Shown here: in pieces, positions 10,771 through 57,448 of the stretch
How positions within the stretch are numbered: position 1 is the first letter of the stretch
How the letters are laid out: every line of letters begins with the position of its first letter
From: Ginglymostoma cirratum
Lineage: Eukaryota
Length of the DNA stretch: 64,000 nt
Assembly: GCA_024137785.1 (NCBI GenBank)
Contig: JAHRHZ010000217.1
Span: 4,783,013-4,847,012 of the forward strand
Direction: 5' to 3'
Notes under the pieces: model-generated
Told to the model about the DNA's origin: nothing
Databases searched by the model: none
Seen by the model: only the letters and a program-made list of their open reading frames with translations
Program-made: the position numbers and the translations under genes

Positions 10771-10908
10771 TGCACGGAGTCTTCCCAGAAACTGCAGTAT
10801 ATTTGTCACAAGATTCCAACGTAAGTGATTGGGCTGACAGCCTCTCATTGTAAGGGAGGGCTCCATGATGACAGGAAGACTGATTTGATCTCCAATACTT
10901 GAAGGGAC
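10771..10908 (-). pseudogene. DIAPH-like terminal exon remnant
   Basis: VLE/RSNQSSCHHGAL resembles DIAPH2 PLERSRSRHNGAI. VTNILQFLGRLRA resembles the DIAPH3 C-terminus VPEVEALLARLRAL. Confidence 0.5.
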
Positions 10909-11580
10909 CTACCATGCAACTTGATAGTATATAGATTGGCACTGCTTGTGTTGCTGCTCTTCCATTAATTCAAATTGCATTTGGTACAGGATAAACAATG
11001 CTTGTCCACATAATGAAGATGTTGCCCAGAGTGAACACAATTTTCCATTACAGACATATAAATGTCAATGAGTCTGAATGCAGCCGTCAGAACAACGTTC
11101 AAATACACTGAATTTAGCTAGAGAGGATTGCCAGCTTATAAACAGCCCCATTAAAATGATAGGCATGGGCTTATGTAGTTGCAATAAACAAAAACTGGTC
11201 ATCATTGTGCCTTTGCTCATTTATATAAATTTGTCCTTATTCTACACAATTAAAAAAAAACTTAGAATAATAGCTTTTTAAAAACATTGATGATCATGTC
11301 CGGAAAGTTAATTATCTCTTATAGTATCCTGGTTCTAAGAAATACCACTCCAACAGGACTTTCCTTTAGCCTTCTGTAATGAAGTGACATTGATTATATA
11401 AACACATTTTGACAGGAAAAAGTTCTGACTTGAGGGTATCACTGATGGAATGAATATCATAAAGTTCTTCTGTCACAATTGTTAAATGCAAAACGACATC
11501 TCACGCTACATGCTGAACTAAACAGGCTCATCATACTTCCCTTGGTAACAGTGGCTTTCAGCCATTGATTAGAGCTTTGC

Positions 11581-11673
11581 CTGATGACCGTAGAGGAGAC
11601 CTTTTCCTCCTGAATACAGTTTCTGACTGCAGGGCCTCCATCAGGCTATCCATCACACCTGTCTCCTTACCAC
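11581..11673 (-). pseudogene. DAD (Diaphanous autoregulatory domain) exon, open frame, DIAPH1-type
   Basis: Acceptor ttctgtgtctccag, phase 1. [26 protein letters not shown] versus DIAPH1 [26 protein letters not shown] (20/26 by eye). Candidate donor CAG|GCAAAG. Confidence 0.9.
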
Positions 11674-12627
11674 CTGGAGACACAGAATACTTCATTCAGC
11701 TACCACCAGTGATGATTAAAATATAATAATCCTGCATCACCCAATAGCTAAAACACAGTGAGGCATCAATCTTTTCCCATTCAGTAACTAAAATTTGCAC
11801 TTTCAGACAACAGTGCATCAATAAGAAAGTTTTTAAAATGGAAGAATTTTTTCTTAAAACGTTCCTTTGAATTAAAAAGTGAGAAAAATGTTAGGATTAA
11901 TTACAGTGTATTTTTCAGATCCTTATACAAGGTAAGGACACCTTACATTGTAAGGTGTCATACATTATAATAAGATCAATTAAAATTAGCCTTATATCTT
12001 ATATCTGCCTTATATCTTTCAACTTTTTTAATAATGTCCAATGTATCAGGAAATTATTTTGTGATGCAGTTTATACTATTCTGATATAAACAATAAATAC
12101 CCTAACTTTAATACTAAACATGCAAATCTGATCATATCCAAAATTTGCTTTAATATCATAAATGTGGTTTGAATGTCAATAGATGATTAGATTTTTTTTT
12201 TCAAAACTGTTCCATTCTGTGGTGCATGCAGATGTAAACTATGTTATGACATGAAATTTCACAAGTAGTAGCTTTTGTCTTCCTTTTCTTTTGTTTCCTT
12301 TTATGTGTTAACGATACCTTTGTGATAACATCTAGGCCAATGACATTTTCATCATAACCTCATGAATACAGCTACAATGGGTTTCTCCTGAGAATTCCTT
12401 TGTCTTTGTGGTTTATGGAGGAAGAAGAGTGAACAAAACAGAGATGTAAGCCAGATATGCCAGAGCCTTCAAGCAATCAGTATATGCATGTTGATATTTT
12501 CAGGCTGAGATGCTTTTGCCCATCATGTCGGAAGAGTACTATGTGTATAGCTTGTGATTTACAACAGGAGTCATGACTGAATTGCATTGTATCCTACCAT
12601 GCAATCACATAAAGTCTCAGGAATTCA

Positions 12628-12926
12628 GGGCAGCACAGTGGCTCAGTGGTTAGTACTGCTGCCTCCCAGTGCCAGGGACCTGGGTTCAATTCCAGCCTCA
12701 GGTGACTATATGTGTGGAGTTTGCACACTCTGCCTGTGTCTGCATGGGTTTCCCTCAGGTGCTCTGCTTTCCTCTCACAGTTCAAAGATGTGCAGGCTGG
12801 GTGGATTTGCTGTGCTATATTGCCTGTCGTATTCAGGGATATACAGGTTAGGTGGGTGGGATGCTCTAAAGGTCAGTGTGGACTTGTTGGGCCAAAAGGT
12901 CTGTTTCCACATTGCAAGGATTCTAT
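12628..12926 (+). mobile_element. HE1-type SINE
   Basis: Same head, core and tail as 25353-25670. Confidence 0.85.
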
Positions 12927-54876: not shown

Positions 54877-54930
54877 AAGGTTACCATGAAGACAGCCCAA
54901 GATATCAAGAAGACCCTCCGTGGATACAGA
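54877..54930 (-). pseudogene. DIAPH1-like exon remnant (DID, ~exon 6)
   Basis: STEGLLDILGCLHGN versus DIAPH1 AEGLASLLDILKRLHDE. Confidence 0.6.
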
Positions 54931-55020
54931 ATAACTGATCATTGAATTGAAATCAAGTCTCACCATAATTTTCCCAGGACGTCAAAGAATAGCCTCTTCT
55001 TGCGTAGATCCTGACCTCAA

Positions 55021-56828
55021 ATAAGACCATAAGACCATAAGACATAGGAGTGGAAGTAAGACCATTTGGCCCATCAAGTCTATTTCGCCACTTAATCATG
55101 GCTGATGGGCATTTCAACTCCACTTACCCACACCCTCCCCCTAGCCCTTGATTCCTTGCGAGATCAAGAATTTATCAATCTCTGCCTTGAAGACATTTAA
55201 CGTCCCGGCCTCCACTATGCTCCGTGGCAATGAATTCCACAGGCCCACCACTCTCTGGCTGAAGAAATGTCTCCTCATTTCCGTTCTAAATTGACCCCCT
55301 CTAATTCTAAGGCTGTGCCCACTGGTCCTAGTCTTCCCGCCTAACAGAAACAACTCCCCAGCGTCCACCCTTTCTAAGCCATGCATTATCTTGTAAGTTT
55401 CTATTAGATCTCCCCTCAACCTTCTAAACTCTAATGAATACAATCCCAGGATCCTCAGCCGTTCATCGTATGTTAGGCCTACCAGTCCAGGGATCATCCG
55501 TGTGAATCTCCGCTGGACACACTCCAGTGCCAGTATGTCCTTTCTGAGGTGTGGGGCCCAAAATTGGACACAGTATTCTAAATGGAGCCTAACTAGGGCT
55601 TTATAAAGTCTCGGAAACACATCGCTGCTTTTATATTCCAACCCTCTTGAGATAAATGACAACATTCCATTCGCTTACTTAATCACGGACTCAACCTGCA
55701 AGTTACCCTTTAGAGAATCCTAGACTAGCACTCCCAGATCCCTTTGTACTTCGGCTTTATGAATTTTCTCACCGTTCAGAAAATAGTCCATGCCTGTATT
55801 CTTTTTTCCAAAGTGCAAGACTTCGCATTTGCTCACGTTGAATTTCATCAGCCATTTCCTGGACCACTCTCCTAAACTGTCTAAATCATTCTGCAGCCTC
55901 CCCACCTCCTCCGCACTACCTGCCTGTCCACCTAACTTCGTATCATCGACAAACTTCACCAGAATGCCCCCAGTCCCTTCATCCAGATCATTAATATATA
56001 AAGTGAACAGCTGCGGCCCCAACACTGAACCCTGCGGGACACCACTTGTCACCCATTGCCATTCCGAGAAAAAGCCTTTTATCCCAACTCTCTGCCTTCT
56101 GTCAGACAGCCAATCCTCAATCCATGCCAGTAACTCACCTCGAACACCATGGGCCGTCACCTTACTCAGCAGGCTCCCGTGAAGCACTTTATCAAAGACC
56201 TTTTGGAAGTCTAGATAGATAACATCCACTGGGTTTCCCTGGTCTAATCTACTTGTTACCTCTTCAAAGAATTCTAATAGATTTGTCAGGCACGACCTCC
56301 CCTTACTAAATCCATGCTGACTTGTTCTAATCCGATCCTGCACTTCCAAGAATTTAGAAATCTCATCCTTAACGATGGATTCTAGAATTTTACCAACAAC
56401 CGAGGTTCGGCTAATCGGCCTATAATTTTCCATCTTTTGTCTTGATACTTTCTTTAACAAGGGGGTTACAACAGCGATTTTCCAATCATCTGGAACTTCC
56501 CCTGACTCCAGTGACTTTTGAAAGATCACAACCAACGCCTCCACTATTTCCTCAGCCACCTCCCTCAGAACTCTAGGATGTAGCCCATCGGGGCCAGGAG
56601 ATTTATCAATTTTTAGACCTTTTAGCTTTTCTAGCACTTTCTCTTTTGTAATGCCTACCATACTCAACTCTGCTCCCTGACTCTCCTTAATTGTTGGGAT
56701 ATTACTCATGTCTTCCACTGTGAAGACTGACGCAAAATACTTATTAAGTTCTTCAGCTATTTCCTTATCTCCCATCACTAGCCTTCCAGCATCAATTTGG
56801 AGCGGCCCAATGTCTACTTTTGCCTCTT
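55021..56828 (-). mobile_element. Young CR1 LINE, 5'-truncated, complete RT domain
   Basis: ORFs 55720-56778 and 55141-55665 are in the same frame, separated by TAG and TAA stops. Motifs KSPGPDG, NYRPIS, GVPQGSVLGP, KFVDD; (CCATAAGA)n tail. Confidence 0.97.
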
Positions 56829-57340
56829 GTTAATTAAGAGTGGAAAATGGATGATAGTCATTTAGTTGACTGTGAGATAAACTAAATAAGAAATTGAATA
56901 TACTCACAATCACCTATTTTGCAGTATTGTCTATTGTCAAAATCCACATCTGTTTTATGTTTTCAGCTACCTGCAAACTTTGAAAAGCTAAACTACACAT
57001 CACATTTTCATTGCATGTTAAGTTACCTCATCCCTTTTATTCATTCAAGTCTTGATGGTGTCCTACACTACAGACCTTGGTCCTTTCGTTTCGATTCTCA
57101 AAAATAGATGGCTATAGGCTGCATGAAGAACATGACTGTTTACTTATCTGGGCTGTAATTTCACTGGCTTTGCCTGAGTCAACTTAAATCCCTCTGTACC
57201 TAAAGGGACAGTTTCATCAATTTCAAAGCTAATGCTATATGGGAACTGAAAAGAATACAAAATAAGGTTTCCTAGCAACCAATCCAAATCTTTCAAAAGC
57301 AAGTCAGTTAACCTGTGAAGTACGTGCCGGGTTTATAAAT

Positions 57341-57448
57341 TGGGAGCTTAAGCCAGTCACTTACATGCAGATCCTTCTTGTTAATTTTTAAGTCTTCATT
57401 TACACCATAAACCATTGCACTCGCATTGCTTTCCTTCTCAGTGTAACA
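57341..57448 (-). pseudogene. DIAPH1-like exon remnant (GBD, ~exon 5)
   Basis: Translates TEKESNASAMVYGVNEDLKINKKDLHVSDWLK, similar to DIAPH1 [30 protein letters not shown]. Confidence 0.75.

What the first reader, a model, noticed from the sequence alone, without database searches (positions are those of the whole stretch)
10771..57448. A ~47-kb fossil Diaphanous formin gene: candidate lost fourth DIAPH ohnolog (sister of DIAPH1)
Seen: about 20 minus-strand segments, mostly invisible to the ORF track, translate into GBD/DID, dimerisation, coiled-coil, FH2 and DAD motifs. They occur in the exact order of a Diaphanous gene, often with splice signals at the expected exon ends. Nearly all carry stops or frameshifts, so this is an ancient unprocessed pseudogene, not a retrocopy. 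Diagnostic motifs (KES..SAM.Y, LLDIL..LH, DEVDNF, LSQD, FRRKR) are DIAPH1-type rather than DIAPH2/3-type. Established: jawed vertebrates have three DIAPH genes on the human 5q, Xq and 13q members of the 4/5/13/X paralogon, with none known on chromosome 4. Inference: this is (a) the remnant of the missing fourth whole-genome-duplication copy, still legible in a slow-evolving shark genome, (b) a lineage-specific loss of DIAPH1, or (c) an old segmental duplicate.
Basis: partly seen in the sequence, partly recalled or inferred. Interest (0 to 1): 0.9.

Follow-up and report, generated by a model that had tools for sequence, protein, structure and literature searches.

The report
Fossil exons of lost fourth DIAPH
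A shark genome with three separate Diaphanous formin genes also keeps three decayed exons of a fourth, spread over 476 kb beside PCDH10, likely the remains of a copy made in the early vertebrate genome doublings; only one exon lies in this window, and the other reported segments score as chance.

Summary
The 47-kb, 20-segment fossil is not confirmed. Only the DAD exon (11,581-11,673, minus strand) rises above noise. The other 21 DIAPH1 exons tested rank at chance in the window, and chains of about 15 weak colinear segments arise in any control tile.

The genome has separate DIAPH1, DIAPH2 and DIAPH3 loci. Scanning 794 kb around the window found two more disabled exons, in the right order and strand, 443 and 476 kb upstream. 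They carry stops, a frameshift and traces of a minor-class (AT-AC) intron.

The remnant lies tail-to-tail with PCDH10, 504 kb away. PCDH19-DIAPH2 (505 kb), PCDH17-DIAPH3 (534 kb) and the protocadherin cluster-DIAPH1 are arranged the same way, and PCDH10 is sister to the cluster (100/99). The exons are as far from DIAPH1 (65% DNA identity) as the paralogs are from each other.

Best reading: an unprocessed pseudogene of the fourth whole-genome-duplication copy, mostly deleted and decaying neutrally. Sequence trees alone do not fix its sister or exclude an early cartilaginous-fish duplicate. An enhancer role for the DAD exon is possible but weakly supported.

The parts
11581..11673 (-). DAD-motif exon remnant (my label e27): 93 nt, frame open here, conserved GAAF reads ETVF, DIAPH1-type F-RRKR lacking the two extra codons of DIAPH2/3. 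Two further exons of the same fossil lie outside the window on the same strand: e25 at G000:C217:5,237,095-5,237,260 (3 stops, 1-nt insertion) and e24 at G000:C217:5,270,364-5,270,489 (1 stop, decayed AT-AC-type donor)
   Evidence: outside exons:
11674..11690 (-). splice acceptor with pyrimidine-rich tract and AG, same phase as in DIAPH1/2/3
11575..11580 (-). former splice donor, now GC instead of GT
11354..11731 (.). single-copy stretch round the exon, held at the orthologous place in two other organisms (B: 26 differences in 378 bases; A: about 96-97% alike)

Best explanation
Three decayed DIAPH exons lie in gene order on one strand over 476 kb beside PCDH10, and they are likely what is left of a fourth Diaphanous gene made by the second vertebrate genome doubling, probably as sister of DIAPH1. 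Shown: the exons, their stops, frameshift and splice remnants; three other DIAPH loci; the same PCDH-then-DIAPH tail-to-tail layout at all four loci; PCDH10 sister to the protocadherin cluster. Inferred: an ancestral PCDH-DIAPH block was quadrupled, and at the PCDH10 copy the DIAPH gene died. Most of its exons were then deleted or lie outside the stretch I could read, while the survivors drifted about 0.17 changes per site and stay legible because sharks evolve slowly. It makes no formin. Its former body is now probably part of the gene-poor region downstream of PCDH10.
For: Four DAD loci, three assigned to DIAPH1/2/3 by named homologs. Neighbours: PCDH18 and PCDH10 on C217, PCDH19 by DIAPH2, PCDH17 by DIAPH3, the cluster by DIAPH1. 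Tree of 14 protocadherins: PCDH10 + cluster 100/99, PCDH17 + PCDH19 100/99. Cytoplasmic PCDH exon to DAD exon: 504, 505 and 534 kb. Three exons at 62-89 bits against noise of at most 37 in 744 kb on both strands; e24 found independently genome-wide. DNA identity over 363 nt: 65/62/64.5% to DIAPH1/2/3, against 63-67% among paralogs; third positions differ from DIAPH1 at 64 of 121. Protein identity to 15 DIAPH1s is 50-59% with no shark bias, 48-54% to 12 DIAPH2s and 47-56% to 8 DIAPH3s. Recent duplication from carpet-shark DIAPH1, 2 or 3 is rejected (p-AU 0.044, 0.0005, 0.001). Decay is similar across codon positions: 23 of 153 invariant first/second and 6 of 32 invariant third positions. In organism B the DAD exon differs at six codons, one of them now a stop.
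Against: Trees do not fix the sister. The protein tree puts the fossil with DIAPH1 at 86/47 and the DNA quartet at 81. Fossil + DIAPH2 or + DIAPH3 is not rejected (p 0.31 each), nor fossil + elasmobranch DIAPH1 (p 0.46). Fossil + chondrichthyan DIAPH1 scores 0.28 log-likelihood HIGHER than the free tree (p 0.52). The e25-e27 gap is 442 kb against 13-52 kb in the paralogs, the intervening exon e26 was not found, and 23.6 kb of that gap reads N, so one continuous gene is inferred. Only 3 of 22 exons tested were found. The gene on the far side was not identified. No jawless-fish or amphioxus outgroup covered these exons.
Confidence: 0.84

Rival explanations
1. An old segmental duplicate of the 3' part of DIAPH1, made early in cartilaginous fishes, that landed near PCDH10.
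For: The protein tree allows fossil + chondrichthyan DIAPH1 (0.28 log-likelihood higher, p 0.52). Only 3' exons were found. It shares F-RRKR with DIAPH1.
Against: It would have to land by chance at the one paralogous slot, in the right orientation and at the same ~500-kb spacing. Third positions are as diverged from DIAPH1 as paralogs are from each other. Identity is no higher to shark than to tetrapod DIAPH1.
Confidence: 0.08
2. The DAD exon and the e24/e25 pair are unrelated insertions, or are brought together by assembly, rather than parts of one gene.
For: A 442-kb gap, e26 not found, and N blocks in between.
Against: Same strand, correct order, same contig, all at paralog-level distance from the living genes. 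The e24-e25 intron (33 kb) matches DIAPH2's (32 kb).
Confidence: 0.04
3. Add-on to the best reading, not an alternative origin: the DAD exon is kept by selection as a cis-regulatory element for PCDH10.
For: It is the least decayed exon: 3 of 43 invariant sites changed against 20 of 110. There is 1 difference in the 63-nt core to organism B against a 10% background (binomial 0.009-0.017, core chosen after the fact). Mouse clustered-protocadherin enhancers lie downstream of the cluster (PMC10703910, passages; that this is DIAPH1 territory is my recall, as the paper does not name the gene).
Against: The exon difference is not significant (Fisher p 0.13). The whole exon has 7 differences in 93 to B (p 0.24-0.37) and the 378-nt piece 6.9% against 10.3% (p 0.06). 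No shared non-coding block with the paralogs' flanks was seen next to it. The pedigree rate of 7e-10 per generation (PMC10587355) makes 0.17 changes per site compatible with pure drift since early vertebrate times (my inference).
Confidence: 0.2
4. One reading: a whole gene of about 20 exons fossilised within 47 kb.
For: The motif strings exist; weak colinear tblastn hits at 57,460, 39,860 and 35,691; one segment near 33.0 kb beat 300 random places.
Against: Rank tests and chain tests are at chance. The true e24 and e25 lie 443-476 kb away, so those FH2 exons cannot also be inside the window.
Confidence: 0.02
5. This is the broken DIAPH1 itself (lineage-specific loss).
For: DIAPH1-type F-RRKR.
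Against: DIAPH1 lies on C250 beside the cluster, with 22 open, spliceable exons.
Confidence: 0.01

Closest known systems
DIAPH1/2/3 (Diaphanous-related formins)
   Same: Exon boundaries and phases, FH2 C-terminal exons, DAD motif, an AT-AC-type intron between e24 and e25, tail-to-tail position beside a protocadherin.
   Different: Stops, frameshift, GC donor; GBD, FH3 and most FH2 exons not found (FH1 was left out of the profile); fourth locus.
Exon remnants of bystander genes after whole-genome duplication (Dong et al., PMC2831330; abstract and section 24 read)
   Same: Exon-like non-coding pieces at the paralogous place of a lost duplicate; the paper lists three human cases from the early vertebrate doublings (DNAH11, C15orf41, C1orf146).
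   Different: Here three exons of one gene survive in order with splice remnants, in a shark, beside a protocadherin rather than a transcription factor; no regulatory function is shown.
Bystander erosion making gene deserts (Touceda-Suarez et al., PMC7530604; abstract, part 1 of section 5, passages and a supplement search read)
   Same: Lost neighbour leaves a large gene-poor region by the retained gene; the paper names exon remnants as one of two unequivocal proofs and found one (FAM172A paralog at NR2F2).
   Different: Main text mentions neither DIAPH nor PCDH. Survivors here are legible while neighbours are not detectable, which points to deletion more than even erosion.

Membership tests
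Functional DIAPH formin gene | Open frame through GBD/FH3-FH1-FH2-DAD | tested here: not met
   3 of 22 exons found; 4 stops and a frameshift in two of them
DIAPH-derived sequence | Significant similarity with shared exon boundaries | tested here: met
Unprocessed pseudogene | Introns and splice remnants kept, coding disablements | tested here: met
   acceptors at all three exons, 33-kb and 442-kb gaps
Unprocessed pseudogene | No functional transcript or protein | not testable with these tools
   no expression data could be laid; no evidence either way
Whole-genome-duplication ohnolog | Sits in a paralogous block whose neighbours are themselves paralogs | tested here: met
Whole-genome-duplication ohnolog | Split older than the jawed-vertebrate radiation | tested here: inconclusive
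   paralog-level DNA distance; recent origin rejected, early chondrichthyan origin not rejected
Sister of DIAPH1 | Groups with DIAPH1 against DIAPH2+3 | tested here: inconclusive
   86/47 and 81 support, site patterns 18:10:14; shared two-codon gap; PCDH10 + cluster 100/99
Regulatory exon remnant | Non-coding constraint above background | tested here: inconclusive
Regulatory exon remnant | Enhancer marks or activity | not testable with these tools
   no chromatin or reporter data on hand

The most novel reading that the evidence does not exclude
Shark genomes keep multi-exon fossils of gene copies lost soon after the vertebrate genome doublings. Here a fourth DIAPH completes a fourfold PCDH-DIAPH block, marks PCDH10 as the single-gene sister locus of the clustered protocadherins, and has had its DAD exon re-used as a long-range enhancer of PCDH10.
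Probability: 0.17. Interest if true: 0.8.

Novelty: new member of a known kind. Interest (0 to 1): 0.6.

Why it matters
Physical remains of gene copies lost after the early vertebrate genome doublings are rare: the two surveys I read list three and one exon remnants. A three-exon fossil at the predicted slot turns an inferred loss into an observed one and allows the loss to be dated by comparing sharks, rays and chimaera. It ties the protocadherin cluster locus to PCDH10 as sisters. It also suggests that a systematic scan of slow-evolving shark genomes could recover more lost ohnologs and test how gene deserts formed.

Tried and rejected
PDB search with the 17,651-17,965 frame: 0 hits. Pfam FH3, GBD and FH2 genome searches: no C217 match. 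Genome searches with 8 of 8 other single DIAPH1 exons (e4, e5, e10, e13, e20, e21, e22, e23) and two partial DIAPH1 proteins: no C217 match. These searches are incomplete: DIAPH3's own exon was missed in 2 of the 10 single-exon searches, and one search used a stricter filter. A candidate e4 at C217 5.369 Mb runs into repeat sequence, and a candidate e26 at C217 5.171 Mb is an A/G-rich chance match: both rejected. No protocadherin remnant in the 794 kb. RELT-family and delta-1 protocadherin matches are not on C217; the EPL1 search was uninformative. AT-AC intron motifs in the window gave no pattern. The M in DSLMEAL is not diagnostic, since many teleost DIAPH2 carry it. Pfam scan of 145 of the 185 non-repeat frames of 58 aa or more plus 4 chosen frames: only DAD, a LINE reverse transcriptase and three sub-threshold hits. 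No RNA holder listed. Organism C gave no orthologous contig with 61-64% of each run read, which is no evidence. Earlier findings of the scan: none. Literature searches with no hits: ('DIAPH4'); one search gave two listings I did not open. The library lacks most subscription journals, so 'not in print' is not shown. In the PMC7530604 supplement I saw only 2 of 3 DIAPH and 2 of 68 PCDH places; the supplements of PMC2831330 were not read.
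Full report
Setting. The window is G000:C217:4,783,013-4,847,012 in a 4.36-Gb genome. Its DIAPH exons match shark proteins best. 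About 19% of the window is repeated within the stretches held. Exon labels e3-e27 are mine, by order.

What is really in the window. A Pfam DAD search finds four loci genome-wide: C9, C267, C250 and this window. tblastn with five DIAPH1 proteins, two of them printed, shows only the DAD exon as significant. I built a frameshift-aware codon profile from 35 named DIAPH proteins, leaving out the proline-rich FH1 region, and located 22 exons of the genome's own DIAPH1. The DAD exon scores 62-78 bits. The other 21 exons rank at chance inside the finding (mean rank 9.9 and 9.0 of 18). The best colinear chain without DAD ranks 27 and 30 of 32, and control tiles yield about 15 chained segments by chance, which explains how a reader could see about 20. 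A positive control with a DIAPH3-only profile recovers the 22 DIAPH1 exons at 32-168 bits. Planted exons decayed by 0.1-0.2, which matches the DAD score, are recovered 12-17 of 21 times. The 47-kb gene is therefore not there.

Three other DIAPH genes. C250 is DIAPH1, C267 is DIAPH2 and C9 is DIAPH3, by named homologs. The 22 DIAPH1 exons seen are open and spliceable. Its FH1 region, first exons and last exon were not found in the stretches fetched. DIAPH2 and DIAPH3 were seen only in part. Loss of DIAPH1 is excluded.

Synteny. A protocadherin search shows the cluster on C250 (0.017-1.44 Mb, plus strand) facing DIAPH1, PCDH19 facing DIAPH2 and PCDH17 facing DIAPH3. On C217, PCDH18 (4.088 Mb) and PCDH10 (4.267 Mb) face the remnant. 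In a tree of 14 protocadherin frames, PCDH10 is sister to the three cluster members included (of more than 40) at 100/99, and PCDH17 to PCDH19 at 100/99. The distance from the large cytoplasmic PCDH exon to the DAD exon is 504 kb here, 505 kb for DIAPH2 and 534 kb for DIAPH3. This is the two-by-two pattern expected from two genome doublings. That human PCDH10 and PCDH18 are on chromosome 4 with no DIAPH is recalled, not tested.

More exons far outside the window. I scanned C217:4,683,013-5,477,012 (794 kb, 36.7 kb of it N). Two more exons appear on the minus strand in the right order: e25 at 5,237,095-5,237,260 and e24 at 5,270,364-5,270,489. Over the first 744 kb the three exons score 62-89 bits and everything else at most 37; the last 50 kb gave nothing above 40. 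e24 is also the second-best genome-wide hit to DIAPH1's e24 (E 1e-5), and half of e25 is hit weakly (E 0.36). e24 has one stop and a decayed version of the AT-AC-type donor that all three paralogs carry. e25 has three stops, a one-base insertion, an AC acceptor and a GT donor. The e24-e25 intron is 33 kb (paralogs 11-32 kb). The e25-e27 gap is 442 kb (paralogs 13-52 kb), e26 was not found, and 5% of the gap reads N. No other exon was found (see Tried and rejected).

Age and affinity. Over 363 aligned bases the fossil is 65, 62 and 64.5% identical to DIAPH1, 2 and 3, while the paralogs share 63-67%. Recent duplication from carpet-shark DIAPH1, 2 or 3 is rejected (p-AU 0.044, 0.0005, 0.001). The protein tree of 36 rows and 129 columns (the partial lamprey row was left out because it does not cover these exons) places the fossil at the base of DIAPH1 with weak support, 86/47. 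It cannot reject sisterhood to DIAPH2 or DIAPH3, or nesting with chondrichthyan DIAPH1, and the last scores marginally higher than the free tree. The two-codon gap in F-RRKR is shared with the DIAPH1 rows listed, while all but two DIAPH2/3 rows have the longer form. 'Sister of DIAPH1' thus rests mainly on synteny and this gap.

How it works. It is dead as a formin. At first and second positions invariant in the three paralogs it has changed at 23 of 153 sites (about 0.17 per site), and at invariant third positions at 6 of 32, as expected for drift after death. Two other organisms hold the DAD exon in the same flanks. In organism B six codons differ and one is a stop, so there is no sign of coding constraint. 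The table of differences was cut, and 22 of B's 26 differences in that piece were visible. Survivors at about 0.2 beside undetectable neighbours suggest deletion of most exons rather than even erosion (inference). With 7e-10 mutations per base per generation measured in epaulette shark (PMC10587355, passages), such slow decay needs no selection (inference; no generation time was tested). Hints of extra conservation of the DAD core are weak.

Compared with what is known. Exon remnants of lost duplicates are a described class (PMC2831330, PMC7530604), with few cases from the early vertebrate doublings. I found no paper on a fourth DIAPH in the library, which lacks most subscription journals.

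Verdict. Observation partly confirmed. New member of a known kind; interest 0.6.

Noticed in passing
window 53,035-56,829 (-): LINE-type retroelement remains: a 369-aa reverse-transcriptase frame (RVT_1, E 2e-29) and a 455-bp internal duplicate at 94%.
   Followed up: partly
window 58,870-59,336 and 62,950-63,416: 467-bp direct repeat at 98.9% identity, 4 kb apart; could be terminal repeats of a young element or a local duplication.
   Followed up: no
G000:C9:5.69 Mb and 5.90 Mb (L119, L120): Two near-identical, divergently oriented protocadherin first exons (PCDH8-like by my recall): a recent inverted duplication.
   Followed up: no
G000:C267:15.65 Mb (L116): A protocadherin on the 5' side of DIAPH2 that is sister (100/100) to the one on the 5' side of DIAPH3; it looks like a PCDH20 paralog, which I recall as absent from the human X.
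   Followed up: partly
G000:C217:4.088 and 4.267 Mb: PCDH18 and PCDH10 are 180 kb apart on the same strand; I recall them as convergent and megabases apart in human, which would imply an inversion in one lineage.
   Followed up: no
G000:C250:0.26 Mb (L126): A shark cluster protocadherin whose best PDB match is PCDH10 rather than a mammalian alpha or gamma isoform.
   Followed up: partly
G000:C283:44.06 and 44.12 Mb (L016, L017): Two tandem formin genes with GBD and FH2 hits (INF2-like by my recall).
   Followed up: no
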